Shown one piece after another: positions 6,035 to 58,737 of a stretch of 64,000 nucleotides of DNA. The stretch is taken from NCBI GenBank assembly GCA_016934315.1, contig JAFGSY010000039.1:24454-88453 (forward strand), read 5' to 3'. Position 1 is the stretch's first letter; each line of letters starts with the position of its first letter. The notes beneath the pieces are model-generated. The model did not search any database and was not told the DNA's origin. It saw nothing but the letters and a program-made list of their open reading frames with translations. The position numbers and the translations under genes are program-made. The stretch is from Candidatus Anaeroferrophillus wilburensis. Lineage in GTDB: Bacteria > Desulfobacterota > Anaeroferrophillalia > Anaeroferrophillales > Anaeroferrophillaceae.

Positions 6035-6212
6035 ACTGACCTTTTTACAGCGTTATGGCTGTTGATATGTGGCCGCTACTGCCATGGACGCTGCCGGCAA
6101 TTTTAGCCGGTCTGTGGGTGGTCCCCATGGCGTGCGCAGTTTAGAACTTGACTTAGCCGGTTACTTATGGTTTAAAACCCCTCTAAAATCAATCATTTTG
6201 GTCTTTGAAAAT

Positions 6213-17626: not shown

Positions 17627-17697
17627 CGTCCTTTCAGGGTTGTACTGGATGGTTGCCGGTTTTTTACGGCGTTTTGCCCGTTGCTACGAGTCCATCA

Positions 17698-18807: not shown

Positions 18808-18826
18808 CAACTCCGCTACTGGAAGG

Positions 18827-24544: not shown

Positions 24545-24615
24545 TTGTCCTTAGCTTGAGTGATCGTGATATCTGAAAAACCTTTGATGAAGCAGGTCGT
24601 GAGGGGAGGTTGTCT

Positions 24616-25806
24616 GTGGCAAAAGTGCAGAAAACCATTGAGGAAATAAATCAGCGGATAAAAAAGGGCGAAGCGGTAGTGGTCACCGCCGAGGAGATGA
24701 TCGGTATTGTTGGCGAGCATGGTGCCGCAGAGGCAGCCCATCAGGTTGATGTGGTGACCACCGGAACCTTCAGCCCCATGTGTTCCTCGGGTGCTTTTTT
24801 TAATCTCGGCCATTGTACGCCGCGCATGCGCGCCAGCAAGGTATGGCTCAACAATGTTCCTGCTTATGGTGGGGTTGCCGCTGTCGATGCATATCTGGGG
24901 GCGACGGAACCATGTGTTGAAGATCCATTGAATAAAATCTATCCCGGAGAGTTTCGTTACGGTGGCGGGCACGTCATCCAGGATCTGGTGGCCGGGGAAA
25001 AGGTCCATGTCTATATGGAGGGCTACGGTACCTCCTGCTATCCCAGCAAGGTGGCGGAAAAACAGCTGACGCTGGCAGATATGCCCAACGCTATTCTCTG
25101 CAATCCCCGCAATGCCTACCAGAACTATAATTGTGCCATTAACCTTTCAGACAAGACGATCTATACTTATATGGGGGTTCTGCGTCCCCGGGGTGGCAAT
25201 GCCACCTACTGCAGTGCCGGTCAGCTGAGTCCCCTGCTTAATGATCCCTATTATCTGACCACCGGTCTGGGAACCAGAATTTTTCTCGGCGGCGGTATCG
25301 GCTATGTCACCTGGTATGGAACCCAGCATAATCCCGGGGTGAAACGGGGGGCAAACGGAGTGGTGCGGGGCGGTGCTGGAACGCTTTTTGTTACCGGTGA
25401 CCTGAAGCAGATGTCATCCAAGTGGCTGGTGGGGGTCAGCATGCTGGGCTACGGCTGCAGCCTGGCGGTGGGTATTGGCATTCCCATTCCGATTCTCAAT
25501 GAACAGATGGCGCGCTTTACCGCCGTCAGCGATGAGCAGATCTTCGCCCCGGTGGTTGACTACAGCTACGATTATCCCATGGGCACCGGCAAGGTTATTC
25601 AAGAGGTATCATATGCGGATCTCAAACGGGGCATGGTTGTCATCAACGGCAAGGAAACCAAGACCAGCCCATTGTCCAGTTATTTTCGGGCCAGGGAGAT
25701 AGCGGAAACATTGAAAAGCTGGATTCAGGCAGGTGATTTCACCCTTGGCGAGCCGCAGATGAAGCTCCCCGGGCATGAACTGGCAGATCTTGGTGTTGGA
25801 GTATAG
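24616..25806 (+). CDS. COG1900/DUF39 protein, homolog of the Methanosarcina MA1821-type homocysteine-biosynthesis sulfur-incorporation enzyme.
   Basis: N-terminus KTIEEINQRIKKGEAVVVTAEEMIGIV and overall architecture match the MA1821 family. GTG at 24616 preceded by GAGGGGAGG. The track gives a TTG start at 24610. Confidence 0.8.
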   Translation: MAKVQKTIEEINQRIKKGEAVVVTAEEMIGIVGEHGAAEAAHQVDVVTTGTFSPMCSSGAFFNLGHCTPRMRASKVWLNNVPAYGGVAAVDAYLGATEPCVEDPLNKIYPGEFRYGGGHVIQDLVAGEKVHVYMEGYGTSCYPSKVAEKQLTLADMPNAILCNPRNAYQNYNCAINLSDKTIYTYMGVLRPRGGNATYCSAGQLSPLLNDPYYLTTGLGTRIFLGGGIGYVTWYGTQHNPGVKRGANGVVRGGAGTLFVTGDLKQMSSKWLVGVSMLGYGCSLAVGIGIPIPILNEQMARFTAVSDEQIFAPVVDYSYDYPMGTGKVIQEVSYADLKRGMVVINGKETKTSPLSSYFRAREIAETLKSWIQAGDFTLGEPQMKLPGHELADLGVGV

Positions 25807-47305: not shown

Positions 47306-50300
47306 ATGAACGTGGTTCTAAAGAGGAGAGTTAAAAATTTCAGTGAGGATTTTGACCATCAGTTTAATGGTGCCCGGCTGTTTGATGCTGAAAAGTTTAT
47401 CGATGATATTATTGCTGCCGGAGGTCCGGAAACCTATGCCAAAATGCAGGAAAGGCATGACTTTATCGGTGATGGCAATGCGGTTGTTGTTGAAGTGCTC
47501 AAACGCATTGTTACCGGCCTGGTCGGCTATCCCATAACCCCTTCGACTCCTATTGCCGAAGGCATGGCAAAGGCTTATGCCGATGGCTTCAGCAATGTGT
47601 TTGGTGAAAAAATTTTTTATTTCCAGCCCGAAAGTGAATTGGGTGCGATGGCCTTCCTGGAGGGTGCCGCCTCCCAGGGCGGCCGCTTTGCCGACAACAC
47701 CTCATCTCAGGGCCTAACCTATAAAATCAAGAACATGTACTCGGTTGCCGGCAAAAGGCTGCCGGTTTTAATGACCGTGCAGACCAGGGAACTCAACAAG
47801 GGCAGCCTCAGCATTCATAATGGTCATGGAGATCTCTATGCGGCCCGGGGTGCCGGCTGGATTCAGTTGATGAGCTGCAACAATCAGGAGCTTCATCATT
47901 TGGTTCCTCTGACCTTTAAAGCCATAGAACAGCGCCAGGTCATGCTGCCGGCCATCGTCGCCGGTGAAGGTTTTCTTAAGAGCCATTCCATCGAGAACAT
48001 CAAAACGGTCTCTGACGAATTTCTGAAACATTATCTTGGTGAGCCCAACCGCTTCTATCAACCGGATTTTGACCATCCGGTACTGATGGGCACGTTTACG
48101 GACATCGGTGTTACCATGCCGGTCCAGATGAAACAGGATCAGGCATTGCTTAACAGCAAAAAGTATATCCAGGCGGCCATGAATATCATGAATGTCATAC
48201 TTGGCACTGACCTGCAGGTTGTAGAACGGTATCATGCGGATACGGCCGAGTATGTGGTGGTCTGTATGGGGTCCGTCGCAGAAACCATGAAGGAGGCAAT
48301 CGACTACTATCGCAGCAAGGGGATTGCCGTCGGTCTCGTTCGGCCGGTACTTTTCTATCCTGTCTGCAGTGAAGAGATTGCCGCCGGGGTGCAGAATGCC
48401 CGGGTGATCAGCGTTTTGGAAAAGGTTGCCGAGGGTAATGAACAGTACCTGCTCAAAGATGTCAAAGAGGCGGTGTATCTTTTGAATGACCGGCAGGACT
48501 GCCACTGCCATCCCCGGATTACTGCCGGCACCTATGGTCTTGGCAATCAGGATATCAGCCTGGATGACTGCTGTGCAGTTATTGAAAATATGCTCAGTGA
48601 TCACCCACAGACAAAGTTTAAATGTGGCATTCGCGGTCCCCAGACCCTGGCGCCGGTAGTGAAAGAGGATCTGGTGGAAAAAGAGGTTGGCGTCACCTTT
48701 ATCGGCATCGGTGCCGAAGGGGTGAAAACGGCACAGGAGACCCTGGCTAAAATCATTGCCAAAAGCGGCAAGTATGTGCAGACCAGCGCCAAATACGGCG
48801 CCTCACGAAAAGGCGGCATGGTGGTGATGAATGCCCGGGTTTCGGACAGCCATATCCGCAACTGCTCCAATGTCACCAAGGTTGAAACCCTGTCCATTTT
48901 TAATGATAAATATCTCCAGGACAACTGCCTACTGCATTTTATCCTCGGGATTAAGAAGGGCGGCCATCTGATCATCAACACGGTAAAAGATTTTGATGAA
49001 CTGTTGGCGAAAACAACCCCGGAGATTCAACAAAGCCTTGAAAAAGCCTCTTTCAATGTGGTGTTGCTGGATGCCACCAGTGCGGCGCTGGAGAAGTTGA
49101 AGCGCAACCTGCCGGGTACGCCGATTTTGGGGGTCATTAATAAAATCACCGGTCTGCTGCCGGAAAAGCAGTTTAAGGAGGCCTTTAAGGCTGAGTTGAG
49201 CGCCAAATTTGGTACCAAAAAACCGGAGATGATCGATGTCAACCTGGAACTTCTGGATGTTGCCTATAGCATCAGAAGCAGGACCGACAGCGGCCTGCCC
49301 AATGCCGGCGCAAGCAAGAAAAAAGTTGCCGCCAAGGAGGTTGGGGTTAAAGACCTGCCGGGCTTTTTTACGCCGCATGTGGCTGGCTACACGGAGGATG
49401 ATGAGTATGCCACACCGATTTTTCCGGCGGTCTATGGTGCCCGCTACCATGAAAAGTTTATTGCCGATGTCCTGCGTCCCCTTCAGCAGGGTGAAGACAT
49501 CCCCTGGGATCGCTTTCACAATATTGTGCCGGCAAGGACTTCGGAATATCACAATGCCAGCCTGATTGGTACCGCCCTGCCCGTCTATGAAGCGGGGCAA
49601 TGTGTTACCTGCGGCATGTGTGTCACCAGTTGTCCGGATTATGCCCTGCGGGTTACGGTTATTTATGATGATGATTATAATGCATTGCCCGCCGCCAGCC
49701 AGCGGCTGTTCAAGTCGGTTAACCTGAATCGTTTCACCGGTTATGGGGATGCCTCCTTCAAAGATAGTTATCTTAATATCAATGTGGTGCCATCCTATTG
49801 CAAAGGCTGTGGCGCTTGTGTCGCCGTTTGTAAAGCCGGTGCTTTAAAGATGATTGATAAGGCACTTATAACGCCTGATGCACAGAAACAGTTTCTCGAT
49901 GAAGGGATTTATGACCTAGATCAGAGTGCGAAGGTTCTTCCCTATGTCAAAGAGAGCAAGCCTCTCCAGCAGCTCATGCTTGGTTATTCCGGTCAGAAAT
50001 TCCTTCCCGGAGGCCACAGCTTATGTCCGGGATGCGGTGAAGGGGTGATTGAAAATCTGGTTTTTACGGCGGCGGAGATGGTCCGCAAAAAACCAAAAAT
50101 TATTGAAGAGACCTATCAGTCAATTCCTGAACTGATGAAGAAGCACCATGGCAAGGGGCTGCAGCATATGGTTGACCACGGTTTTCATCTCTATACCATC
50201 AATGCCACCGGCTGTGCTCAAGTGTCCTGCTTGGGCAATCCCTACAATGCGAGAATTTACCAGTCGGGCCATTATGGTTTTGGTACCGCCAGTGCGGCGG

Positions 50301-51091
50301 CCCTGGGTTCCCGGATATCACTGTTCAGCGCTTTTAGGAATTTCTACCTTGAGAAGCTGACCAAAGTTCTTGTCTTCGGCGGTGATGGAGCGTTTTACGA
50401 TATTGGTAATCAGGGTCTTAATTTTGCGTTGGGGGAAAACCAGGATGTTACCTGGATTATCTACAATAATGAAGCCTATATGAATACCGGTTTCCAGAAA
50501 TCCGGTGCCAGCCGCTATGGTTCCAACCGTACGACCTCTCCCTATGGGTTGGAGCTGCAGGGAAAAGAGGATTTTCATCGTGAGATTGCCATGCAGGCAA
50601 CGGTTATTCCCGGAGTGTATGTGGCTCGCCTCTCCCTTGCCAACCCCGCCTATGCCCTGAAAATTCTCAAGGAGGCCATAGCCTACAAGGGTCCTTCGTT
50701 GATCGAATTTTTCTCCCCCTGTCCCACCGGCCAGGGACTGGCACAGGATGATATGTCAATGGCTGTCTCCCGCATGATGATGGAATCGCGTGCGTGGACG
50801 GTCTTTGTCAGGAAGCCATACGCCAAAATTGATATCTCAGGCAACCCTGATGCCGAGGAACTCTTCCCGCGACCGAAGAAGATCAAGGGTCAGGAAGTTC
50901 CGCCGGCGACCTTCAGGGATATTGTCGAGCTGATGGGGCAGTTTGTCGGGGATAAGAAAACTATCGACACCATTGTTAAGGTCAATGAACGGCAGAATTT
51001 GTTCATGTGGAGTGTTCTGCAGTTTCGTGCCGGGTTGCGGGAGAAAGTGCTTGACGCTGATGAGGTGGCAACATTGATCGCCAACCGTTAG
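47306..51091 (+). CDS. Single-chain 2-oxoacid:ferredoxin oxidoreductase of the PFOR/NifJ family (1261 aa) with an N-terminal extension. Substrate unknown.
   Basis: Domain I (YPITPST), a ferredoxin domain with two CxxCxxCxxxCP motifs (CVTCGMCVTSCPDY, CKGCGACVAVCKAG), TPP domain GGDGAFYDIGNQGLN and extra cysteines CPGCGEG. A ~60-aa N-terminal extension relative to canonical NifJ. Start ambiguous within about 6 nt. Confidence 0.85.
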   Translation: MNVVLKRRVKNFSEDFDHQFNGARLFDAEKFIDDIIAAGGPETYAKMQERHDFIGDGNAVVVEVLKRIVTGLVGYPITPSTPIAEGMAKAYADGFSNVFGEKIFYFQPESELGAMAFLEGAASQGGRFADNTSSQGLTYKIKNMYSVAGKRLPVLMTVQTRELNKGSLSIHNGHGDLYAARGAGWIQLMSCNNQELHHLVPLTFKAIEQRQVMLPAIVAGEGFLKSHSIENIKTVSDEFLKHYLGEPNRFYQPDFDHPVLMGTFTDIGVTMPVQMKQDQALLNSKKYIQAAMNIMNVILGTDLQVVERYHADTAEYVVVCMGSVAETMKEAIDYYRSKGIAVGLVRPVLFYPVCSEEIAAGVQNARVISVLEKVAEGNEQYLLKDVKEAVYLLNDRQDCHCHPRITAGTYGLGNQDISLDDCCAVIENMLSDHPQTKFKCGIRGPQTLAPVVKEDLVEKEVGVTFIGIGAEGVKTAQETLAKIIAKSGKYVQTSAKYGASRKGGMVVMNARVSDSHIRNCSNVTKVETLSIFNDKYLQDNCLLHFILGIKKGGHLIINTVKDFDELLAKTTPEIQQSLEKASFNVVLLDATSAALEKLKRNLPGTPILGVINKITGLLPEKQFKEAFKAELSAKFGTKKPEMIDVNLELLDVAYSIRSRTDSGLPNAGASKKKVAAKEVGVKDLPGFFTPHVAGYTEDDEYATPIFPAVYGARYHEKFIADVLRPLQQGEDIPWDRFHNIVPARTSEYHNASLIGTALPVYEAGQCVTCGMCVTSCPDYALRVTVIYDDDYNALPAASQRLFKSVNLNRFTGYGDASFKDSYLNINVVPSYCKGCGACVAVCKAGALKMIDKALITPDAQKQFLDEGIYDLDQSAKVLPYVKESKPLQQLMLGYSGQKFLPGGHSLCPGCGEGVIENLVFTAAEMVRKKPKIIEETYQSIPELMKKHHGKGLQHMVDHGFHLYTINATGCAQVSCLGNPYNARIYQSGHYGFGTASAAALGSRISLFSAFRNFYLEKLTKVLVFGGDGAFYDIGNQGLNFALGENQDVTWIIYNNEAYMNTGFQKSGASRYGSNRTTSPYGLELQGKEDFHREIAMQATVIPGVYVARLSLANPAYALKILKEAIAYKGPSLIEFFSPCPTGQGLAQDDMSMAVSRMMMESRAWTVFVRKPYAKIDISGNPDAEELFPRPKKIKGQEVPPATFRDIVELMGQFVGDKKTIDTIVKVNERQNLFMWSVLQFRAGLREKVLDADEVATLIANR

Positions 51092-51115
51092 GATTTTTTG
51101 CGTGCAGCAAAAAAA

Positions 51116-51140
51116 CAGCCTCACATGAGGCTGTTTTTTT
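51116..51140. terminator. Intrinsic terminator hairpin (CAGCCTC-ACAT-GAGGCTG) flanked by A7 upstream and T7 downstream, so potentially bidirectional.
   Basis: Perfect 7-bp GC-rich stem 25 nt after the PFOR-like stop. T-run at 51134-51140, A-run at 51109-51115. Confidence 0.75.
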
Positions 51141-51216
51141 AAGCATATACTTGACAATCTCATGTGGGTATGGCAGAAGGCAGATTCGGCTTACAATCTC
51201 TTGCTGAGACGGCTGC

Positions 51217-51993
51217 ATGGAAAACAACCTGGCTTCTCCTTCTTCCTATGGCCGGCGCTGGTATCGCCAGCTGGACGGGCCTGGTTCCTTGGCATCCTTT
51301 ACCGTCGCCATGGGGGAAACCGACCTGCTGGTGCGGGCAGCTGATGCCGGTTTGCAGCGGCTGGTCAGTGAACGGGTCATTGTCTATCGGCGGCAGATTG
51401 AAGCCTTTCTGGCTGATTATCCTGAAGTCCGGATGCAGCTGCACCCCTTTGTTCCCTCTACTGAACTGCTCTTGCCGCCGGTAGTGAAAGAGATGCTTGC
51501 CGCAGGTCATCAGGCCGGGGTGGGGCCGATGGCTGCGGTTGCCGGGGCAATCGCTGAAAGGGTTGGCCGTGACCTTCTGCCGTATTCACCGACGGTGATG
51601 GTGGAAAATGGCGGCGATATCTTTCTGGCTGGTAAAAGCAGTTACACGCTGGGAATTTTTGCCGGTGCTTCGCCCTTTGCCGGCAAGCTGGCGATCCGTT
51701 TGAGCCGGCCGCTACCATTTGCTGCCGGGGTTTGCTCCTCCTCGGCAACCATAGGGCATTCTTTGAGTTTCGGTTCTGCTGATCTGGTCACCATCTATGC
51801 CGACTCAACGGCGGCAGCCGATGCCTTGGCTACCGCAATGGGCAACCGGGTGCACCATAAAGACGATCTCCAGCCGGTTGTTAATGAAGCCTTGCGTCAT
51901 GCTGGTGTCCATGGTGTTGTCATTATTAAAGGCGAGGACCTGGCTGCCGGGGGGGCGCTTGAGCTGATACCGGTGGCCGGCAGTCGTCGTTGA
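51217..51993 (+). CDS. UPF0280/COG2122 ApbE-superfamily protein (homolog of archaeal MA1715-type proteins linked to sulfide-dependent homocysteine/cysteine biosynthesis).
   Basis: 258 aa. The GG-D core (MVENGGDIFLAG) and overall size match COG2122. Family assignment from memory. Confidence 0.55.
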   Translation: MENNLASPSSYGRRWYRQLDGPGSLASFTVAMGETDLLVRAADAGLQRLVSERVIVYRRQIEAFLADYPEVRMQLHPFVPSTELLLPPVVKEMLAAGHQAGVGPMAAVAGAIAERVGRDLLPYSPTVMVENGGDIFLAGKSSYTLGIFAGASPFAGKLAIRLSRPLPFAAGVCSSSATIGHSLSFGSADLVTIYADSTAAADALATAMGNRVHHKDDLQPVVNEALRHAGVHGVVIIKGEDLAAGGALELIPVAGSRR

Positions 51994-52003
51994 AAGGATA
52001 CGT

Positions 52004-52408
52004 ATGAAACATACCTATGTACTCCACTTTGATCAGAGTAATTATGATAAGCCCATCGTCTACCGCCTTATTAAAGACTATGATCTAGTTTTTAATATCG
52101 TGCGCGCCGTGTTGCTGCCCAAACAGGAGAGTTATCTGGTGATGGAAATCAGCGGTAGTGATTTCCAGTTGGAGCAGGGCCTTGCATATCTGCGGGATAA
52201 GGGTGTTGATGTCAATCCTGTTAACAAAAATGTTAAAAGAAACGAGGAAAAATGTATTCATTGTGGTGCCTGTACAGCCATTTGCCCCACCGGTGCCCTG
52301 GCTGTTGACTGGCCATCCATGGAAGTGCATTTTTTCGCTGAACAATGTAGTGCCTGTGGATTGTGCGTCACTGCCTGTCCCCCACGGGCGATGGAGGTGA
52401 GCTTTTGA
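52004..52408 (+). CDS. NIL-domain / 2x[4Fe-4S] ferredoxin-domain protein (MA1822-like).
   Basis: N-terminal NIL-like domain then CIHCGACTAICPTG and CSACGLCVTACPP motifs. AAAGGA SD 6 nt before the ATG. Confidence 0.75.
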   Translation: MKHTYVLHFDQSNYDKPIVYRLIKDYDLVFNIVRAVLLPKQESYLVMEISGSDFQLEQGLAYLRDKGVDVNPVNKNVKRNEEKCIHCGACTAICPTGALAVDWPSMEVHFFAEQCSACGLCVTACPPRAMEVSF

Positions 52409-52836
52409 AATTATCTACCAAAGGAAGGTATTCCGTCCGGGCGCTGATGGCCTTGGCCACCATTGCCAATCATCAGCATAAGCCGGTATCCCTGAAGCAG
52501 ATAAGCGTCCACGAGGGGATTTCCGTCAGTTATCTTGAACAGCTGTTTGTCCATTTGCGACGTGCCGGACTGGTGCAGAGCGTCAGGGGTCCGGGCGGCG
52601 GCTACCTGCTGGCCAGAAGCCTCAATGATATCAGCGTTGCCGAGATTATGAGTGTCGTGCAGGAATCAGTCCAGCCGGTTAACTGTGCTGATTGCACGAT
52701 GCAGCAACCGGGGTGCAATCTTAAAAAAGACAGCACCGAATGCATGACCAGGCCGGTCTGGGAAAAACTTGAACAGGTAATCGGCGATTTTCTCAGCTCG
52801 GTGACCTTGCAGGATATTATTGCCGGCCAGGTATGA
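52405..52836 (+). CDS. Rrf2-family transcriptional regulator (IscR-like).
   Basis: KLSTKGRYSVRALMALA...ISVSYLEQLFVHLRRAGLVQSVRGPGGGYLLAR is the Rrf2 wHTH. Three Cys downstream (CADC...C) are possible cluster ligands. TTG start overlapping the upstream stop by 4 nt, with a GGAGGTGA SD. Confidence 0.8.
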   Translation: MKLSTKGRYSVRALMALATIANHQHKPVSLKQISVHEGISVSYLEQLFVHLRRAGLVQSVRGPGGGYLLARSLNDISVAEIMSVVQESVQPVNCADCTMQQPGCNLKKDSTECMTRPVWEKLEQVIGDFLSSVTLQDIIAGQV

Positions 52837-53993
52837 CCGTCTATTTGGACTATAACGGTACAACGCCGGTTGATCAGGCGGTCCGCGAAAGTATGCTGCC
52901 CTACCTGGGGGAGCATTACGGCAATCCCTCCAGCAGTCATTGGGCTGGTAAAGAGGCTCGTGAAGCCGTAGAACACAGCCGCCGGCAGGTGGCAGCGTTG
53001 CTTGGCGGCTCCCCCGAGGAGATTGTTTTTACCAGCGGCGGCTCCGAAAGTGATAACCTGGCGTTGCAGGGGATAGTGTTCGCCAACTGGCGGCCCGGCC
53101 AGCCGTCACCTCATATCGTCACTTCAATGGTGGAACATCCAGCGGTCGACAACTGTTGTTCCTTCCTGGAGTCCCTGGGTGTTCGCATTACCCGACTTGC
53201 GGTTGACCGGCATGGACGGCTTACGCCAGAACAGGTGGCGGCAGCGATGACCGACGAGACGTTGCTGGTTTCGTTGATGTTGGCAAATAATGAAACGGGA
53301 GTCGTCTTTCCATTGGCGGAAATTGCCGAGGTTACCAGGGCACGTGGGGTATTGCTGCATACGGATGCGGTGCAGGCAGTGGGAAAAATGCCAGTTGATG
53401 TGCAATCTCTGGGGGTGGATCTGCTGTCGATTTCCGGTCATAAATTTTATGCCCCCAAAGGGATTGGTGCCCTATGGATCAGGTCCGGGGTTTCTGTTGC
53501 ACCCCTCATCCATGGGGGAGGGCAGGAACAGGGCCGGCGAAGTGGTACCGAGGCGGTTGCCGGCATTGTCGGCTTGGGTAAAGCCGCATCCTTGCTGACT
53601 GATAGGCAGCCAGAGGAGATGCAGCGGTTGGCGAAGTTGCGCCATTATTGTGAAGCATCTTTGACCAGTGAACTGCAAGGGGTAACGATTCACGGTGCCG
53701 TGGCCGAGCGGCTGACCAATACAACCAGTTTTTCAGTCCCTGGAGTTGATGGTGAATCATTGCGGGTCCATCTTGAGCTGCAGGGTATTGCCGTGTCCGC
53801 TGGTTCCGCCTGTTCATCAGGCAATGGCAAGGGTTCACGGGTGCTTGGTGCCATGGGCATTCCCTACGCCATTGCCCAGAGTTCTTTGCGGATCAGCCTT
53901 GGTCGCTGGACAACCATTGATGAGATTGACACCTTTGTTGAGATATTGAAAAACGTCAGTACATCTTTACAAGCCATCTCCCCCCTGTATTGA
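52833..53993 (+). CDS. iscS: Cysteine desulfurase (NifS/IscS family).
   Basis: PLP lysine motif SGHKFYAPKGIGAL and active-site Cys loop SAGSACSSG. 386 aa. Confidence 0.88.
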   Translation: MTVYLDYNGTTPVDQAVRESMLPYLGEHYGNPSSSHWAGKEAREAVEHSRRQVAALLGGSPEEIVFTSGGSESDNLALQGIVFANWRPGQPSPHIVTSMVEHPAVDNCCSFLESLGVRITRLAVDRHGRLTPEQVAAAMTDETLLVSLMLANNETGVVFPLAEIAEVTRARGVLLHTDAVQAVGKMPVDVQSLGVDLLSISGHKFYAPKGIGALWIRSGVSVAPLIHGGGQEQGRRSGTEAVAGIVGLGKAASLLTDRQPEEMQRLAKLRHYCEASLTSELQGVTIHGAVAERLTNTTSFSVPGVDGESLRVHLELQGIAVSAGSACSSGNGKGSRVLGAMGIPYAIAQSSLRISLGRWTTIDEIDTFVEILKNVSTSLQAISPLY

Positions 53994-54172
53994 GATGTTT
54001 ACCGCACTGCTTCTTCAGCGGCCGGCCAATGGCTGCGGCAGCAGCATGTATGGATTTTGACCGCCCGCAGTTTATGTTCCACGGACAATAATCGAGACGA
54101 TAATAATGGTGGCTGAGATTTTCTCCCCTCTGCCAGTGGCAGTTTTTTTGTTTTTGTCGCAGACGGCAGATC

Positions 54173-55210
54173 ATGGCTGATACGGTAGTTGTCGGGTTCA
54201 GCGGTGGCGTTGACAGCGTTGCTGCGGCCATTCTGCTCCAAACTGAAGGATATGCTGTGCAGCTGGTTGCCCTTGATATGGGTACAGCAACGGCGGCTCT
54301 CTTCCGTCATCGGGTGGAGAGTGCGGCAGCACTTCTCGATCTGCCTCTCAAAATTGTCATGGTTGGTGATGCGTTCCAACGTCATGTGATCGATTACCTG
54401 GCGACATCCTACCTCAAGGCTTTAACTCCCAATCCATGCATCAGATGCAACAGCCTGGTGAAATTCAGTTTTCTTGCCCGGGCACAGAAGCAATGTGGCG
54501 CCCGCTGGCTGGCCACCGGCCACTATGTAACCAAGAGGTCATGGCGGGGCGGTGAGCTGGTTCCCGGCCAGGGCAGGGACGACGGCAAGGACCAAAGCTA
54601 TTTTTTGCAGGCGGTTGATCGTGAGCTTTTTACTGACTGCCGGTTCCCTCTGGGCAGTCTGCAGAAAACGGAAGCGGTTGCCCTTGCCGCTGCCGCTGGT
54701 TTCCAGATAGATTCCTATCAGGAAAGTCAGGAACTATGTTTTGTCGGCCAGGGGTCCTACGTTGATGTGCTCCGCCGCCATCCTGGGATGACTGACGGCC
54801 AGCCTGGATTGATTGTCAATCGCGCCGGTGATGTTGTTGCCCGCCATCAGGGCATTCATCATTTTACCATCGGCCAGCGGCGTGGATTGGGGATTGCCCA
54901 TCCCAGCCCGCTCTATGTCTGTGCTCTTGTTCCCGAACGCAATGAGGTGGTGGTGGGTGAGCGGGATGACCTCTATGGCAGAACCGCAGTCATTAAAGGG
55001 ATGAACTGGTTTATCAAACCGGAACGCTGTCCGGCCAGCCTATGGTGTCAGATCCGCTATCGTCATCAGCCGGCTGCAGCGGCGGTTGAGTTTCTTGATA
55101 ACGGCCATCTCAAGGTGAATTTTGCCGAGCCGCAGTTCGCCATAACGCCAGGGCAGGGAGCGGCTCTCTATGATGATGGTTGCCTTCTGGGTGGCGGCTG
55201 GATCTGCTGA
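54173..55210 (+). CDS. mnmA: tRNA-specific 2-thiouridylase.
   Basis: PP-loop VVGFSGGVDSV and catalytic cysteines (CIRCN, ...C). 345 aa. Confidence 0.9.
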   Translation: MADTVVVGFSGGVDSVAAAILLQTEGYAVQLVALDMGTATAALFRHRVESAAALLDLPLKIVMVGDAFQRHVIDYLATSYLKALTPNPCIRCNSLVKFSFLARAQKQCGARWLATGHYVTKRSWRGGELVPGQGRDDGKDQSYFLQAVDRELFTDCRFPLGSLQKTEAVALAAAAGFQIDSYQESQELCFVGQGSYVDVLRRHPGMTDGQPGLIVNRAGDVVARHQGIHHFTIGQRRGLGIAHPSPLYVCALVPERNEVVVGERDDLYGRTAVIKGMNWFIKPERCPASLWCQIRYRHQPAAAAVEFLDNGHLKVNFAEPQFAITPGQGAALYDDGCLLGGGWIC

Positions 55211-56526
55211 TGAACGTGAAAATCATTACCCTGGGATGTAAGCTGAACTTCTATGAATCGTGTGCTTTAAGCGAGGCGTGTGCGCATCTGGGGATGCAGG
55301 TGGTCAGCAACGGTGCTGCTGATGTCATCATTATCAACAGCTGCGCAGTGACCGGCAAAGCGGGAATGCAAAGCCGCCAGGCAGTGCGCCGGGAGATAAG
55401 GAATAACCCGAATGCCCGGGTGATTATGACCGGTTGCTATGCCCAGTATGAGCCTGATATTGCTGCCGCCATTGATGGACTTAGGGCGGTTGTTGGTAAT
55501 GCCGGCAAAGCTGAAATTCCCCAATGGTTATCCGGGGATGGCCGCATGGGCAGTCAGTTTCCGGTCCGGTTCGGCTTTGCTGGTGAGATGCCGGTGGCGG
55601 CGTTGCGGGCTCGCCATTCACTTGGCCGGACACGGGCCTTCATGAAAATCCAGGATGGCTGCAGTGCTTTTTGCAGCTATTGCATTATTCCCTATCTTCG
55701 CGGGCGCCCCCGCAGTCTGCCGATGGATGATGTTGTGGCTGAAGCGGTCCAGCTGGAAGATAATGGCTACCGTGAACTGGTGCTCACCGGCATTCATCTT
55801 GGTCAATACGGAATTGATGGCGGCACGAAAGACGGTTTGGTCGATTTGCTCAGGTTGCTGTGTATGCATACGACAATGCGTGTTCGTCTGGGTTCTCTTC
55901 AGCCGCCGGAGATTTCCCCGGCCCTTCTGGAGCTGTTGTGTGACGAAGACAATAATCTTTGCGAGCATCTTCACCTGTCGTTGCAGTCGGCCAATGATGA
56001 GGTGCTTGCGGCAATGGGCCGCCCCTATGGTCAGCGTGATATTGTTTCGCTGGTGGAAATAATCCGGAACCGGAACAGCCGGGTAACCATGGGGGCCGAT
56101 ATTATCGTTGGTTTTCCCACCGAATCAAGAGCTGCTTTTGCCGATACCAGCCAGGTACTTGCTGATCTTCCCCTGGCTTATCTCCATGTTTTTCCATACT
56201 CCCCGAGGCCGGGAACGGCAGCGGCTGGTTTGCCCGACAAGATCTCAGCGGCTGAAAAGAAAGACCGGTCAGCCATGCTGCTGGCCATGGCTGCGAACAA
56301 GAAGCGTGATCATTACCGCCACTGCCTCAACCAGCCTCTCAAGGTTCTGGCTGAAGAGAAGGCAGTAATGGATAATCGCGGCAGCGGTTTAGTGGGATAT
56401 TCGAGAAACTATCTTTCCGTTTTCATTGTGGTGCCGGCCACCCAAATTGCCTCCTGCCTTAACCATGAACACCAGGTAATTCCCCGTCATTATGATGACA
56501 CCATGCTGTTGGCAGATTTAAGCTGA
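55210..56526 (+). CDS. MiaB/RimO-family radical SAM methylthiotransferase (MtaB-like).
   Basis: N-terminal MTTase domain (ITLGCKLNFYES...NSCAV), radical SAM CSAFCSYC and C-terminal TRAM-like region. Start overlaps the mnmA stop (TGATG). Confidence 0.8.
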   Translation: MNVKIITLGCKLNFYESCALSEACAHLGMQVVSNGAADVIIINSCAVTGKAGMQSRQAVRREIRNNPNARVIMTGCYAQYEPDIAAAIDGLRAVVGNAGKAEIPQWLSGDGRMGSQFPVRFGFAGEMPVAALRARHSLGRTRAFMKIQDGCSAFCSYCIIPYLRGRPRSLPMDDVVAEAVQLEDNGYRELVLTGIHLGQYGIDGGTKDGLVDLLRLLCMHTTMRVRLGSLQPPEISPALLELLCDEDNNLCEHLHLSLQSANDEVLAAMGRPYGQRDIVSLVEIIRNRNSRVTMGADIIVGFPTESRAAFADTSQVLADLPLAYLHVFPYSPRPGTAAAGLPDKISAAEKKDRSAMLLAMAANKKRDHYRHCLNQPLKVLAEEKAVMDNRGSGLVGYSRNYLSVFIVVPATQIASCLNHEHQVIPRHYDDTMLLADLS

Positions 56527-56605
56527 CATGGTTATCAGGATATGATATAAAGAGCATTAAATTAGTTAACATAAAGCTGCAATGATGTGATCGGAGGAAA
56601 CGCAT

Positions 56606-56800
56606 ATGATTGGTAAATCTACCCCCATTCGTGATCTGTTGACCAAATATCCTAAAGCTGCTCAGGTGTTTGCCGACAAGGGCATGGGCTGTCTGGGCTG
56701 TTCTGCCTCAATGTTTGAAACGGTTGAGGAGGGAGCTTTGGCTCATGGGCTTGATCCAGAGAAGCTGGTTGATGAGATGAACGCCGCCCTTAAGGGGTGA
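56606..56800 (+). CDS. DUF1858-type small redox-disulfide protein (hybrid-cluster-protein-associated family).
   Basis: 64 aa with the CLGC dithiol motif (KGMGCLGCSASMFETVEEGA). Family recalled from memory. Confidence 0.55.
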   Translation: MIGKSTPIRDLLTKYPKAAQVFADKGMGCLGCSASMFETVEEGALAHGLDPEKLVDEMNAALKG

Positions 56801-56801
56801 G

Positions 56802-57542
56802 ATGAGCGGTCATCGGGAACGGCTTGATATGCTCCTGGTTTCCAGGGGTTTGGCCGCCAGTCGTGAGCGTGCCCGGTCCCTCATTCTGGCCGGCAAGGTT
56901 ATCTGCAACAATCAGACGGTTGACAAGGCCGGACATAAAGTGCCTGGCGATGCTCAAATCCGCTTGAAGGGGAATGATATCCCCTATGTCGGTCGCGGTG
57001 GGGTTAAACTGGCAGCCGCGCTGGAAACGTTTACCATTGATCCGACCGGTTGCGTAGCGCTTGATGTGGGAGCATCAACCGGCGGCTTTACCCACTGCCT
57101 GCTGCTCCATGGCGCCCGGCAGGTGGTTGCCGTTGACGTGGGTTATGGCCAGCTGGCTTGGGAGCTGCAGCAGGATCCACGGGTGGTGGTGAAGGATAGA
57201 ACCAATATCCGTTCACTTGTCCCGGGTGATTTTCCCCAGTTGTTTACTTTTACGGTTGTCGATGTGTCGTTTATTTCATTGACCAAGGTGCTGCCGGTTG
57301 TTGCCAACCTGGTGGCTCCGGGTTCGCCGTTGGTTGCCCTGGTGAAGCCACAATTTGAGGTAGGCCGCTCTGATATTGGTAAAGGTGGTATTGTCAGGGA
57401 TGAAAAAAAGCAGCTGGAGGCCGTGGAAAACGTTATTGCCGTGGCCAGTGATCGAGGGCTGCGTTGTGATGGGCGGATGGATTCCCCCATTCTTGGCCAG
57501 AAGGGAAATCGGGAGTTTTTGATTCTTCTCCGGCGGCAGTAG
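56802..57542 (+). CDS. tlyA: TlyA-family rRNA 2'-O-methyltransferase / haemolysin.
   Basis: S4-like N-terminus (RLDMLLVSRGLAASRERARSLI) and FtsJ-like MTase motif LDVGASTGGFT. Confidence 0.85.
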   Translation: MSGHRERLDMLLVSRGLAASRERARSLILAGKVICNNQTVDKAGHKVPGDAQIRLKGNDIPYVGRGGVKLAAALETFTIDPTGCVALDVGASTGGFTHCLLLHGARQVVAVDVGYGQLAWELQQDPRVVVKDRTNIRSLVPGDFPQLFTFTVVDVSFISLTKVLPVVANLVAPGSPLVALVKPQFEVGRSDIGKGGIVRDEKKQLEAVENVIAVASDRGLRCDGRMDSPILGQKGNREFLILLRRQ

Positions 57543-57575
57543 GCCGCTGTTCAATGACTGCAGAATGTTGCTGGA

Positions 57576-57609
57576 CCGGGGCCATGAAGTATATGGCCCC
57601 GGTTTTTTT
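57576..57609 (+). terminator. Strong intrinsic terminator (CCGGGGCCAT-7 nt loop-ATGGCCCCGG followed by TTTTTTT) between convergent genes.
   Basis: Perfect 10-bp stem and T7 run at 57603-57609. The T-run overlaps the stop codon of the minus-strand lipocalin-like gene. Confidence 0.85.
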
Positions 57610-58735
57610 ATTTCAGAGTGGTGAGTGGCTGGCCGTAGCCCACCAGTTCCAGGTAGCCGTAGCCCAGCAGTGGTTCATTGACAGCCGATGTGCCGCTAAT
57701 TTTGATCGCGCCCTCCCAGTAGTTGGCCAGCGTGGTATCCGTAGCTCTGATTTCCTGGTCAAGCTGTAGAGGGGAGAGCTGCAGCAGCATTTTTTCCGGT
57801 CGTACAATGTTCAACTTCCAGAACAGCGGATAGTTGTTGTGTGTGTGCGGGCTTTGCCAGTCGTCCATCGGAGTTGCCGTGAAATCGCTGCTGGTCAGAT
57901 GTGTAGCCGTCCCATCGGCAGCAATCATGGTGCCACTGGAGGCTGGATCCTGAGAGCCGTCTTTGTTGCGCATCCGGTAGAGCATCAGGGACCGGCCATC
58001 ATTAAAATGAATAGCCAACCAGTCCCAGCCAGCCTGGTTGGCGCCCAGCTGATTGGTGGCAAATTCCCGGTCGAGCCAGCTGAGGCCGCTTACCGTCATC
58101 TGCTGGTCGTGGAGCGTAATGGTTCCACGGCTTTCCAGCCGAGGCCAGGAATAATAATAGGATGCCTGTCCCGGACCGGAACCTTTATGGCTGAGGCCAT
58201 TGGTACCGTTCAGGATCGGGGCGTAGGACGGCTGAAGTTGAAGGCTGATGCCATACTCCGGCGTTTTAACCGTCAACTCCATGCCCTTGCCATCCGGCTT
58301 CATGGTGATCCGGCTGCCCTTGAGCCAGGTATTCATGGTAGTGATCGCCGCCCCTGCCAATCCGGGACCCGCTCGGCTAATATCCTGATGGGAAAAAAAA
58401 CGCTGGTTTTCGACGTCACTCAAACCGCTATGGAGGATAAAGAGGTCCCGGATTTTCCAGACGTTATCTTTGTCCGTGGTCTTTTCCAACCGCAGTCCCT
58501 GGCGAAAGATGGTGAACTGGTAGCCGAACTGCCTGCCGGTTTCGGTTTCCAGATGGCCGGTGACGTACCACCATTCCGTTTTGAAATCCGGGTGGCTGCC
58601 GTGATCCCTGGGAAATTGGAAGGGTCGGGGAGCGACGGCCTGCTGCCAGGCAAGGGCGGGATGAAAAGCGGAGAAACTCTGGGCCAGCAGGAGGAAAAAA
58701 AGCCAGCCAATGGTTTTTTTACCGATGGTGGTCAT
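57608..58735 (-). CDS. Secreted lipocalin-like / CrtC (hydroxyneurosporene synthase)-like domain protein, the usual partner of MacB-type ABC permeases.
   Basis: Signal peptide (MTTIGKKTIGWLFFLLLAQSFSA) after moving the start to ATG 58735. Motifs HPDFKTEWWYVTGHL and YYYSWPRLESRG typical of the CrtC/lipocalin-like family. Track start 58786 would overlap the upstream gene. Confidence 0.6.
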   Translation of the reverse strand: MTTIGKKTIGWLFFLLLAQSFSAFHPALAWQQAVAPRPFQFPRDHGSHPDFKTEWWYVTGHLETETGRQFGYQFTIFRQGLRLEKTTDKDNVWKIRDLFILHSGLSDVENQRFFSHQDISRAGPGLAGAAITTMNTWLKGSRITMKPDGKGMELTVKTPEYGISLQLQPSYAPILNGTNGLSHKGSGPGQASYYYSWPRLESRGTITLHDQQMTVSGLSWLDREFATNQLGANQAGWDWLAIHFNDGRSLMLYRMRNKDGSQDPASSGTMIAADGTATHLTSSDFTATPMDDWQSPHTHNNYPLFWKLNIVRPEKMLLQLSPLQLDQEIRATDTTLANYWEGAIKISGTSAVNEPLLGYGYLELVGYGQPLTTLK

Positions 58736-58737
58736 GG

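What the first reader, a model, noticed from the sequence alone, without database searches (positions are those of the whole stretch)
51217..56800. Sulfur-trafficking neighbourhood: COG2122 ApbE-like protein, NIL-ferredoxin, Rrf2 regulator, cysteine desulfurase, MnmA, MtaB-like methylthiotransferase and DUF1858 dithiol protein
Seven consecutive + strand genes all relate to sulfur mobilisation. COG2122 and the NIL-ferredoxin are the accessory proteins that co-occur with COG1900 (MA1821) in the sulfide-dependent homocysteine pathway of anaerobes. Here they sit with translationally coupled spacing next to an IscR-like Rrf2 gene (4-nt overlap, TTG start) and a NifS/IscS desulfurase. These are followed by the tRNA 2-thiouridylase MnmA, a MiaB-family methylthiotransferase (1-nt overlap) and a CLGC redox protein. 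The COG1900 partner itself lies 26 kb upstream at 24616, and the window begins with a TtcA-like tRNA thiolation gene. This arrangement suggests that COG2122/NIL-Fd may work with the cysteine desulfurase, as a persulfide or sulfide relay, for both homocysteine synthesis and tRNA thiolation in this organism. That link is not established.
Basis: partly seen in the sequence, partly recalled or inferred. Interest (0 to 1): 0.55.

Follow-up and report, generated by a model that had tools for sequence, protein, structure and literature searches.

The report
Desulfurase operon joined to homocysteine helpers
An uncultured anaerobe keeps a cysteine desulfurase, its own iron-sulfur-type regulator and two helper proteins of the sulfide-dependent homocysteine pathway in one conserved operon, followed by tRNA and rRNA modification genes; this gives a testable idea of where that pathway gets its sulfur, but every gene family in it is already known.

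Summary
Window 51217-57542 carries eight co-directional genes: COG2122/UPF0280, NIL-ferredoxin, Rrf2, class-I cysteine desulfurase, MnmA, MtaB, DUF1858 and TlyA. Two strong terminators bracket them. A COG1900 gene lies at 24610 and a TtcA-like fragment at the window start.

The conserved unit is the first four genes. COG2122-NIL-Fd-Rrf2-NifS recurs in all ten distinct related loci examined, with changing flanks. All ten have a conserved 29-nt IscR-type-1-like site overlapping a TTGACA hexamer just upstream of COG2122.

The closest NifS homologs (55% identity or more) share contigs with the closest COG2122 homologs (19 exact contig-length matches). Two NifS at 50-53% identity sit in other contexts, one of them beside NifU.

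A second lineage has COG2122-NIL-Fd-NifS(-MtaB). One Chloroflexi genome has COG1900-NIL-Fd-COG2122-NifS. MnmA, MtaB, DUF1858 and TlyA are attached only in the Anaeroferrophillalia subclade. NifS-MnmA adjacency is common and already known (YrvO-MnmA).

Most likely this is an autoregulated operon in which a dedicated desulfurase feeds cysteine sulfur, through the invariant Cys173 of COG2122, to the homocysteine enzyme, and also to MnmA. The relay is inferred from gene context only. It is a new variant of known kinds, of moderate interest.

The parts
51109..51140 (+). Intrinsic-terminator hairpin (A-run, 14-bp stem, U-run) that ends the upstream PFOR-like gene and insulates the operon
   Evidence: RNA fold: -22.8 kcal/mol, z -5.65, 0 of 200 shuffles fold as well. 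Sequence read.
51147..51175 (+). Candidate Rrf2/IscR-type operator overlapping a TTGACA -35-like hexamer (ATACTTGACAA-N8-GGNTATGNCA)
   Evidence: Unique in the window at 0 mismatches. It is the best match in the whole window to the IscR type-1 consensus, 20 of 25. It is present just upstream of COG2122 in all 10 distinct loci with the four-gene core, and in none of the other 160 loci held. Binding was not tested.
51217..51993 (+). COG2122 / UPF0280 ApbE-fold protein (MA1715 / DVU1097 family); the single invariant cysteine is Cys173
52004..52408 (+). NIL domain plus 2x[4Fe-4S] ferredoxin (MA1822 / DvMF_0262 type); AAGGA ribosome-binding site, 10-nt gap after COG2122
52405..52836 (+). Rrf2-family regulator with four conserved cysteines; TTG start overlaps the NIL-Fd stop by 4 nt and has a GGAGGTG Shine-Dalgarno
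52833..53993 (+). Class-I (NifS/IscS-like) cysteine desulfurase, 386 aa, no NifU/IscU nearby; ATGA overlap with Rrf2
54173..55210 (+). MnmA tRNA 2-thiouridine(34) synthase, C-type (CxxC ... C)
   Evidence: 319 bits, above the 284 cut-off. Motifs NPCIRCN and ESQELCF are read in the translation. Classification per PMC11784392.
55210..56526 (+). MtaB radical-SAM methylthiotransferase (ms2t6A37); 1-nt overlap with MnmA
56606..56800 (+). DUF1858 / hybrid-cluster-protein-associated redox-disulfide domain protein (C-L-G-C)
56802..57542 (+). TlyA rRNA 2'-O-methyltransferase; last gene of the unit, 1-nt gap after DUF1858
57573..57605 (+). Strong intrinsic terminator that closes the eight-gene unit
   Evidence: -26.6 kcal/mol, z -4.4.
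24610..25806 (+). Remote partner: COG1900/DUF39 homocysteine-biosynthesis sulfurtransferase (L-ASST catalytic subunit). It has no ferredoxin or COG2122 gene next to it.
   Evidence: PF01837, 501 bits. One search shows single copies of COG2122, NIL and COG1900 in the window.

Best explanation
This is one terminator-bounded operon of Candidatus Anaeroferrophillus wilburensis that joins two known modules behind one operator.

The core is four genes: COG2122, NIL-ferredoxin, Rrf2 and NifS. It is conserved across a clade of uncultured Desulfobacterota. In this subclade it is followed by mnmA, mtaB, DUF1858 and tlyA.

Proposed working:
- The four-cysteine Rrf2 protein, probably carrying an Fe-S cluster, binds the IscR-type-1-like site that overlaps the TTGACA hexamer and autoregulates the operon according to Fe-S or sulfur status.
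- The desulfurase belongs to a subfamily dedicated to this module and is not the NifU-partnered one. It takes sulfur from cysteine as an enzyme persulfide.
- That sulfur passes to the invariant Cys173 of COG2122 and on to the COG1900 enzyme encoded 26 kb away.
- COG1900, with electrons from the NIL-ferredoxin, converts aspartate semialdehyde to homocysteine.
- The same desulfurase also serves MnmA, as YrvO does in Bacillus subtilis.

Shown here: gene families, operon boundaries, conservation of the four-gene core and of its upstream site, and the separate NifS subfamily.

Known from the literature: COG1900, NIL-Fd and COG2122 are all needed for homocysteine in Desulfovibrio. COG2122 is thought to help persulfide formation on COG1900. 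YrvO passes sulfur directly to MnmA.

Inferred only: the NifS-to-COG2122 transfer, Rrf2 binding to the site, and what signal it senses.
For: Families.

Operon limits: terminators with z -5.65 and -4.4, and nothing significant inside the block. Overlapping or closely spaced genes with ribosome-binding sites.

Four-gene core: present in 10 of 10 distinct related loci, at 48-62% COG2122 identity. The flanks differ: trp operon, integrases, carB, DUF805/MCP, hyp genes, eutBC.

Reciprocity: 19 of the top 63 NifS homologs (55% identity or more) have the same longest-contig length as top COG2122 homologs. Four of these were checked directly. A NifS at 53% identity from the same phylum sits with NifU, and one at 50% with a hexapeptide transferase; neither has COG2122.

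Other lineages: COG2122-NIL-NifS(-MtaB) in L011, L015, L037 and L040, tightly spaced. Their NifS is sister to this clade's NifS. COG1900-NIL-COG2122-NifS occurs in a Chloroflexi MAG (L031).

Enrichment: NifS 8 observed against 0.63 expected in the flanks of 80 genomes.

Operator.

Cysteines: one invariant Cys in COG2122. The Rrf2 has four conserved Cys, the last aligning with IscR C104.

Literature: PMC5764234 (all three proteins required for homocysteine; cofitness r = 0.98; persulfide role proposed for COG2122), PMC12068725 (MA1715 as sulfur-trafficking protein for L-ASST), PMC5372745 (YrvO-MnmA).
Against: - No experiment or interaction test links NifS to COG2122. Operon membership can reflect shared regulation only.
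- In about 45 of 80 genomes COG2122 has no sulfur-related neighbour. In Desulfovibrio vulgaris the three pathway genes are dispersed, so a desulfurase is not a general requirement of the pathway.
- In methanogens the sulfur source is sulfide, not cysteine (as cited in PMC5764234).
- 0 of 80 NifS relatives from metagenomes (45-53% identity) had COG2122 or NIL nearby.
- The sister position of clade A and clade B NifS could partly reflect organismal phylogeny. The NJ trees are crude and have no support values.
- The Rrf2 scores below the IscR equivalog cut-off, and the His107 ligand is Arg.
- The motif matches the E. coli IscR consensus well in only some loci.
- I could not see the rest of the genome, so other desulfurases, NifU/Suf genes or COG2122 paralogs may exist.
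Confidence: 0.5

Rival explanations
1. Co-regulation only. The operon pools genes whose products consume reduced sulfur or Fe-S clusters (homocysteine helpers, a desulfurase for tRNA thiolation, MnmA, MtaB) under one Rrf2 sensor. The desulfurase serves MnmA and perhaps Fe-S or thio-cofactors. COG2122 and NIL-Fd work with free sulfide, as in methanogens and Desulfovibrio, and there is no sulfur hand-over between them and NifS.
For: Rrf2-headed mixed sulfur clusters occur elsewhere:
- L031: Rrf2-CysK-like-Thi4-CysE-like-COG1900-NIL-COG2122-NifS-YHS.
- L033: Rrf2-CysK-like-COG1900-NIL-COG2122-hexapeptide.
- L074: Rrf2-COG1900-NIL-COG2122.

NifS-MnmA is the commonest NifS context (43 of 80) and needs no relay (PMC5372745). 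The pathway runs without an adjacent desulfurase in most genomes.
Against: The four-gene core persists without MnmA or MtaB in six loci (L006, L087, L169-L172), so NifS stays with COG2122/NIL-Fd rather than with MnmA. Clade B has NIL-Fd and NifS tightly coupled with no regulator at all. The NifS subfamily is specific to this context.
Confidence: 0.3
2. COG2122 and NIL-Fd have a broader or different job here. With the desulfurase they form a sulfur (or Fe-S) supply line for Fe-S-dependent thiolation enzymes: the MtaB auxiliary cluster, C-type MnmA and TtcA. Homocysteine synthesis would be only one client, or not a client of this copy.
For: COG2122 lies directly next to MtaB in L032 and L050, in COG2122-NIL-NifS-MtaB in L011, L015 and L040, and next to MnmA in L008. 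MtaB is found 6 times against 0.31 expected. The MnmA here is the CxxC type proposed to use a [4Fe-4S] cluster. No NifU/IscU lies next to this NifS.
Against: In D. vulgaris, COG2122 and NIL-Fd mutants are rescued by methionine, and COG2122 cofitness with DUF39 is 0.98 (PMC5764234). That argues for a homocysteine-specific role. The core lacks MtaB and MnmA in most of the clade. COG1900 is present in this genome, with no other NIL-Fd or COG2122 in the window.
Confidence: 0.13
3. The neighbourhood is a chance juxtaposition of housekeeping genes in a region rich in translation-related genes, with no functional meaning.
For: The window is full of housekeeping and tRNA-modification genes. TlyA and DUF1858 show no association with COG2122 outside the immediate subclade.
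Against: Conservation of the core with changing flanks, overlapping start and stop codons, a conserved upstream site, and recurrence in at least three lineages.
Confidence: 0.03

Closest known systems
DUF39/COG1900 - NIL-ferredoxin - COG2122 homocysteine pathway (L-aspartate semialdehyde sulfurtransferase; M. acetivorans MA1821/MA1822/MA1715; D. vulgaris DvMF_1464/0262/0044)
   Same: All three families are present in the window as single copies. The COG2122 has the family's motifs and fold. The NIL-Fd has the same NIL plus 2x[4Fe-4S] architecture.
   Different: The classic cluster is COG1900-NIL-Fd-COG2122 (16 of 80 genomes here), or the genes are dispersed. Here NIL-Fd and COG2122 have left COG1900 (26 kb away) and sit in an operon with an Rrf2 regulator and a cysteine desulfurase, neither of which is part of the described pathway. 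I found no paper describing this link.
Bacillus subtilis (cymR-)yrvO-mnmA abbreviated 2-thiouridine pathway
   Same: Rrf2 gene, class-I desulfurase of about 380 aa without a scaffold partner, then mnmA, in that order.
   Different: The regulator here has four cysteines, whereas the CymR sequence used (recalled from memory) has none. MnmA is C-type (CxxC); my recollection that B. subtilis MnmA is D-type was not checked. In the NJ tree the desulfurase falls outside the MnmA-linked NifS group. MnmA is missing from most loci that keep the core. The position of cymR next to yrvO is from my own knowledge; the yrvO-mnmA adjacency is from PMC5372745.
E. coli iscRSUA operon (IscR autoregulation through type-1 sites)
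   Same: An Rrf2 regulator with cluster-type cysteines is encoded next to a class-I desulfurase. A 25-bp site matching ATASYYGACTRwwwYAGTCRRSTAT at 20 of 25 positions overlaps the promoter region.
   Different: No IscU, IscA, HscBA or Fdx genes. The regulator is the third gene, not the first. It scores 147 bits against a 207.5-bit IscR cut-off. The cysteine spacing is C-x2-C-x6-C-x8-C and His107 is Arg. The right half-site core (AGTC) is not conserved.
ApbE/Ftp/FmnB flavin transferases
   Same: Same overall fold (Foldseek TM about 0.5).
   Different: 11-16% identity and no Pfam ApbE match. [quoted passage not shown] The family has a conserved cysteine instead.

Membership tests
UPF0280 / COG2122 (MA1715, DVU1097) | Profile-level sequence match over the full length | tested here: met
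   NCBIfam PRK04334.1-3, E 3.2e-73, residues 10-253 against model positions 6-249 of 250. The 246-bit score is below the 271-bit equivalog cut-off. Precomputed PF27030. PDB 2o34 (DVU1097), E 3.9e-61.
UPF0280 / COG2122 (MA1715, DVU1097) | ApbE-like fold | tested here: met
   AlphaFold2 model, pLDDT 88. Foldseek: 2o34 TM 0.77-0.85, then ApbE/Ftp at TM about 0.5.
UPF0280 / COG2122 (MA1715, DVU1097) | Genome also encodes COG1900 and a NIL-ferredoxin | tested here: met
   COG1900 at 24610-25806 and NIL-Fd at 52004-52408.
UPF0280 / COG2122 (MA1715, DVU1097) | Required for homocysteine synthesis or sulfur trafficking | not testable with these tools
   Genetic evidence exists only for D. vulgaris and M. 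acetivorans (PMC5764234, PMC12068725).
L-ASST NIL-ferredoxin subunit (MA1822 type) | N-terminal NIL domain followed by two CxxCxxCxxxCP motifs in about 130 aa | tested here: met
   PF09383 at residues 5-70. Fer4 families at residues 77-132. CIHCGACTAICP and CSACGLCVTACP are read in the translation.
L-ASST NIL-ferredoxin subunit (MA1822 type) | Adjacent to or fused with COG1900 | tested here: not met
   COG1900 is 26 kb upstream. Adjacency is common (15 of 80 genomes have both COG1900 and NIL beside COG2122) but not universal: the genes are dispersed in D. vulgaris.
IscR (Rrf2 family Fe-S regulator) | Rrf2 winged-helix domain | tested here: met
   PF02082, 125.5 bits. TIGR00738, 128.5 bits, above the 73.3 cut-off.
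IscR (Rrf2 family Fe-S regulator) | Reaches the IscR equivalog score | tested here: not met
   TIGR02010, 147.5 bits, below 207.55. NF008110, 122 bits, below 275.
IscR (Rrf2 family Fe-S regulator) | Cluster ligands Cys92, Cys98, Cys104, His107 | tested here: inconclusive
   Four cysteines are conserved in all six clade members aligned. The last aligns with C104. His107 is Arg and the spacing differs.
IscR (Rrf2 family Fe-S regulator) | Type-1 binding site at its own promoter | tested here: inconclusive
   20 of 25 match, the best site in the window. A clade-specific motif is conserved in 10 of 10 loci. Binding was not tested.
YrvO-MnmA type direct s2U34 pathway | Class-I desulfurase gene directly upstream of mnmA | tested here: met
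   NifS ends at 53993 and MnmA starts at 54173, a 179-nt gap with no significant terminator. The same order is seen in 43 of 80 NifS loci.
YrvO-MnmA type direct s2U34 pathway | Absence of the TusA-E relay | not testable with these tools
   Only 64 kb of the genome is visible.
NifS / IscS equivalogs | Reaches the curated equivalog score | tested here: not met
   TIGR03402 NifS, 468 bits, below 530.75. TIGR02006 IscS, 376 bits, below 643. It is a class-I desulfurase of its own subfamily.
MtaB | Reaches the equivalog score; UPF0004 plus radical-SAM domains | tested here: met
   TIGR01579, 382.8 bits, above 357.05. PF00919 and PF04055. No separate TRAM domain hit.
MnmA | Reaches the equivalog score; three domains | tested here: met
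   NF001138, 319 bits, above 284. PF03054, PF20259 and PF20258.

The most novel reading that the evidence does not exclude
COG2122, NIL-ferredoxin and this NifS subfamily form a previously unrecognised desulfurase-acceptor system of strict anaerobes, comparable to IscS-IscU/TusA, SufS-SufE/SufU and NifS-NifU. COG2122 would be the persulfide acceptor. The NIL-ferredoxin would supply the electrons that turn persulfide into deliverable sulfide. Clients would include the COG1900 homocysteine enzyme and, in some lineages, MtaB and Fe-S-type MnmA. The system would be controlled by its own Fe-S-sensing Rrf2 repressor.
Probability: 0.25. Interest if true: 0.7.

Novelty: new variant of a known kind. 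Interest (0 to 1): 0.48.

Why it matters
The DUF39/COG1900 route is how many anaerobes, including sulfate reducers, Dehalococcoides and methanogens, make homocysteine. The role of COG2122 in it is still unknown, and so is the immediate sulfur donor.

A conserved operon ties COG2122 and the NIL-ferredoxin to a dedicated cysteine desulfurase and an Fe-S-type regulator. This points to cysteine-derived persulfide as the donor in these bacteria. It also names a specific residue (Cys173) and a specific DNA site to test.

If the model holds, it adds a sulfur-acceptor family to the short list of desulfurase partners. It would also link methionine supply to Fe-S or sulfur status. If it fails, the operon is still a clean example of co-regulated sulfur-consuming genes.

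Tried and rejected
- Rfam scans of the whole window (gathering thresholds) and of 50900-57800 (E up to 1) found no riboswitch or other RNA family. SAM or T-box control is therefore not supported.
- My first motif pattern had a wrong spacer (N9) and found nothing. It was corrected to N8.
- The motif does not recur elsewhere in the window. In particular it is absent upstream of COG1900 and of mnmA.
- A box upstream of 52833 is impossible, because Rrf2 and NifS overlap.
- The terminator-like hairpin in the NifS-MnmA gap (54130-54142) is not better than shuffles (z -1.8). I therefore do not split the operon there.
- The metagenome scan from the NifS side returned only 45-53% relatives, mostly soil organisms, with no COG2122. 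It shows that NifS-MnmA is common but is a poor test of reciprocity. The protein search with contig matching was more informative.
- Local Pfam gave no hit for COG2122 or for the TtcA fragment. A PDB sequence search of the fragment gave only spurious repeat proteins. NCBIfam settled both.
- The primary paper on MA1715 (Rauch and Perona 2016, PMC4936107) is not held. I relied on how PMC5764234 and PMC12068725 describe it.
- An unbiased Pfam count of unlabelled COG2122 neighbours found HD/dGTPase-like, HIT, DnaE and DnaJ, and no further sulfur partners.
- No complex prediction was possible with the tools.

Full report
**What is in the sequence**

The window is part of contig JAFGTY010000076.1 of a MAG named Candidatus Anaeroferrophillus wilburensis. 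This is a strictly anaerobic, uncultured Desulfobacterota class with genomes of about 2.8 Mb (bioRxiv 10.1101/2021.03.22.436540).

Between 51217 and 57542 there are eight + strand genes.
- COG2122/UPF0280, 51217-51993.
- NIL plus 2x[4Fe-4S] ferredoxin, 52004-52408.
- Rrf2, 52405-52836.
- A class-I NifS/IscS-like cysteine desulfurase, 52833-53993.
- MnmA, 54173-55210.
- MtaB, 55210-56526.
- A 64-aa DUF1858 protein with the motif C-L-G-C, 56606-56800.

The COG2122 call rests on several results. NCBIfam gives E 3e-73, slightly below the equivalog cut-off. The profile matches PDB 2o34 (DVU1097 of Desulfovibrio vulgaris) at E 4e-61. An AlphaFold2 model (pLDDT 88) has best structural matches to 2o34 and then to ApbE/Ftp flavin transferases at TM about 0.5.

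The junctions are as described:
- GGAGGTG, then a TTG start overlapping the NIL-Fd stop (TTGA).
- An ATGA overlap between Rrf2 and NifS.
- A TGATG overlap between MnmA and MtaB.

COG1900 (PF01837, 501 bits) is at 24610-25806 with no ferredoxin or COG2122 beside it. The first 264 bases encode a TtcA-like C-terminus.

**Operon boundaries and a regulatory site**

The upstream 1261-aa PFOR-like gene ends at 51091. A strong hairpin with a U-run follows it at 51109-51140 (-22.8 kcal/mol, z -5.65). A second strong terminator follows TlyA at 57573-57605 (z -4.4). The small hairpin in the 179-nt NifS-MnmA gap is not better than shuffled sequence. The eight genes therefore look like one transcription unit. 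Rfam finds no RNA element.

Between the first terminator and COG2122 lies ATACTTGACAATCTCATGTGGGTATGGCA (51147-51175).
- Its first 25 bases match the published E. coli IscR type-1 consensus at 20 of 25 positions. The consensus string ATASYYGACTRwwwYAGTCRRSTAT was confirmed in PMC3899308.
- It is the best such match in the whole 64-kb window.
- The pattern CTTGACAA-N8-GGNTATGNCA is unique in the window.
- With at most two substitutions in the full 29-nt motif, it occurs once, just upstream of COG2122, in each of the ten distinct loci that share the four-gene core.
- It overlaps a perfect TTGACA hexamer.

Binding is untested.

The Rrf2 proteins of these loci carry four conserved cysteines, the last aligning with IscR Cys104. 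The His107 position is Arg, and the protein scores below the IscR equivalog cut-off. It is therefore an Fe-S-type Rrf2 regulator, but I do not file it as IscR proper.

**Is the adjacency conserved?**

A scan of one genome per species with a COG2122 profile gave 80 loci. I searched them with the window's proteins and built a neighbour-joining tree of COG2122. Four patterns appear.

1. The window's own clade. All ten distinct loci examined have COG2122-NIL-Fd-Rrf2-NifS with the same overlaps.
   - The loci are the window, L004, L006, L084, L086, L087 and L169-L172, at 48-62% COG2122 identity.
   - Their flanks differ: trp operon, integrases, carB, DUF805, hyp genes, eutBC, an MCP gene.
   - Only the Anaeroferrophillalia-like subclade continues with MnmA-MtaB-DUF1858-TlyA (window, L084, L086; L004 as far as its contig reaches).
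2. A separate clade (L011, L015, L037, L040) has COG2122-NIL-Fd-NifS, mostly followed by MtaB, and no regulator. Syntrophaceae (L032, L050) have COG2122-MtaB. L008 has MnmA-COG2122-COG1900.
3. The classic COG1900-NIL-Fd-COG2122 cluster occurs in Dehalococcoidia, Clostridia and Omnitrophota, among others.
   - It is sometimes headed by a three-cysteine Rrf2 and mixed with CysK-like, CysE-like and Thi4 genes.
   - Once it is followed directly by NifS (L031).
4. In about 45 genomes COG2122 stands among housekeeping genes (HD/dGTPase-like, HIT, DnaE, DnaJ).

Counted against a simple random-placement expectation, several families are enriched near COG2122:

| Family | Observed | Expected |
|---|---|---|
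| NifS | 8 | 0.63 |
| MtaB | 6 | 0.31 |
| MnmA | 4 | 0.31 |
| Rrf2 | 6 | 0.94 |
| TlyA | 0 | 0.31 |
| DUF1858 | 0 | 0.31 |

These figures ignore shared ancestry. At least three lineages are involved.

**The view from the desulfurase**

A metagenome scan with the NifS found only 45-53% relatives. Of these, 43 of 80 have MnmA beside them, 8 have an Rrf2 upstream, and none has COG2122 or NIL. So NifS-MnmA is the common, known arrangement (YrvO-MnmA; PMC5372745).

The protein-database search was more telling. Among the 63 closest NifS homologs (55% identity or more), 19 have exactly the same longest-contig length as one of the closest COG2122 homologs. I verified four such pairs directly.

Below that identity level the context changes. 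A 53% relative from the same phylum is a NifU-NifS pair. A 50% relative sits with a hexapeptide transferase. Neither has COG2122.

In an NJ tree, the NifS of the window clade and of the COG2122-NIL-NifS-MtaB clade are sisters. They are separate from the MnmA-linked metagenome NifS and from L031.

The desulfurase is thus a subfamily of its own that travels with COG2122 and NIL-Fd. It is not the scaffold-partnered Fe-S assembly enzyme. No NifU, IscU or Suf gene is in the window.

**What it most likely does**

Established knowledge:
- DUF39/COG1900, NIL-ferredoxin and COG2122 are each required for homocysteine synthesis in D. vulgaris. COG2122 has near-identical fitness to DUF39, and mutants are rescued by methionine.
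- A conserved cysteine of the COG1900 protein carries a persulfide in vivo, and COG2122 was proposed to help form it (PMC5764234).
- MA1715 is described as a sulfur-trafficking protein for L-ASST (PMC12068725).

The bacterial COG2122 alignment has one invariant cysteine, Cys173, in the motif GVC(S/T)SS...GHSLSFG.

Putting this together with the comparative data, my best-supported model has three parts:
- The operon's desulfurase makes a persulfide from cysteine and passes it to COG2122 Cys173, and from there to COG1900. The NIL-ferredoxin supplies electrons.
- The same desulfurase serves MnmA.
- The four-cysteine Rrf2 represses the operon at the conserved site.

I put this at about 0.5. The gene families, boundaries, conservation and separate NifS subfamily are shown. 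The sulfur hand-over and the regulation are inferred.

**Rivals**

- Co-regulation without hand-over (about 0.3). This fits the mixed Rrf2-headed sulfur clusters in other phyla, and the fact that most genomes run the pathway without an adjacent desulfurase. It explains less well why NifS stays with COG2122/NIL-Fd when MnmA and MtaB are absent, and why NIL-Fd and NifS are directly coupled without a regulator in the second clade.
- A broader sulfur or Fe-S supply role towards MtaB and the CxxC-type MnmA (about 0.13). The recurrent COG2122-MtaB adjacency suggests it. The methionine rescue in Desulfovibrio, and the absence of MtaB and MnmA from most core loci, weaken it.
- Chance (about 0.03). This is excluded for the core. 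It remains possible for the TlyA and DUF1858 tail.

**Comparison with known systems and novelty**

Every gene belongs to a known family, and two sub-modules are known: the homocysteine helpers, and Rrf2-desulfurase-MnmA.

What I did not find described in the accessible literature:
- The conserved four-gene operon that ties COG2122 and NIL-Fd to a dedicated desulfurase subfamily and an Fe-S-type Rrf2.
- Its conserved upstream site.

I rate it a new variant of a known kind. It is of moderate interest because it turns an open question into specific experiments: the sulfur donor of the pathway and the role of COG2122.

**Limits**

- The trees are neighbour-joining without support values.
- The enrichment figures are not phylogeny-corrected.
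- Contig matching is indirect except for the four verified cases.
- Only 64 kb of the genome was visible.

Noticed in passing
window 47306-51091: A fused 1261-aa 2-oxoacid:ferredoxin oxidoreductase lies directly upstream of the operon. It scores only 374 bits against the 911-bit PFOR equivalog cut-off, so it is a divergent member of unknown substrate. A 1281-aa PFOR-type protein with the same Pfam domains lies about 5 kb upstream of the cluster in L086.
   Followed up: partly
L008 2390-2414: In a MAG with the order MnmA-COG2122-COG1900-CysK-like, an IscR-type-1-like site lies between COG2122 and COG1900. It matches 20 of 25 positions (the best in that locus) and differs at 3 positions from the clade motif. 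No Rrf2 gene was seen in that locus.
   Followed up: partly
L031 5367-12159; L033 6894-11459: Rrf2-headed sulfur-assimilation clusters occur in other phyla. L031 has Rrf2-CysK-like-Thi4-hexapeptide (CysE-like)-COG1900-NIL-COG2122-NifS-YHS (Chloroflexi MAG). L033 has Rrf2-CysK-like-COG1900-NIL-COG2122-hexapeptide. Their Rrf2 proteins have three cysteines.
   Followed up: partly
window 1-264, 6069-8380, 11500-12851, 46343-47089: The window is unusually rich in tRNA-modification genes besides MnmA and MtaB: a TtcA-like fragment, QueA-Tgt, QueE-QueC and TruA.
   Followed up: no
window 57608-61924 (- strand): An AttH-like gene, an FtsX-type permease and an ABC ATPase sit between TlyA and GcpE (62041-63102). 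In the relatives L084 and L086, TlyA is followed directly by GcpE and MutL. This looks like an insertion into conserved synteny.
   Followed up: no
window 54173-55210: The MnmA has the CxxC ... C pattern (NPCIRCN, ESQELCF) of C-type enzymes proposed to bind a [4Fe-4S] cluster, but it lacks the N-terminal CC pair. This resembles the Campylobacter/Helicobacter variant described in PMC11784392.
   Followed up: partly
window 16637-17590 and 30077-30916: Two sizeable ORFs (317 and 279 aa) have no match in NCBIfam or Pfam at the thresholds used.
   Followed up: no
window 17653-19513: A spore-photoproduct-lyase-like radical SAM ORF (115 bits, far below its 400-bit cut-off) overlaps the start of an MTA/SAH-nucleosidase or futalosine-hydrolase-like ORF. 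The start codons and functions are unclear.
   Followed up: no
L006, L087, L169-L172 (motif at the annotated COG2122 start): In six loci the annotated ATG of COG2122 lies inside the conserved upstream motif (GGTTATGNCA). In the window the motif ends 41 nt before the start codon. Either the starts are mis-called in those loci or the leader length differs.
   Followed up: no
L173 5266-8203: A NifS at 50% identity sits between a hexapeptide transferase gene and a convergent aspartate-semialdehyde dehydrogenase gene. That enzyme makes the substrate of the COG1900 pathway. This may be coincidence.
   Followed up: no
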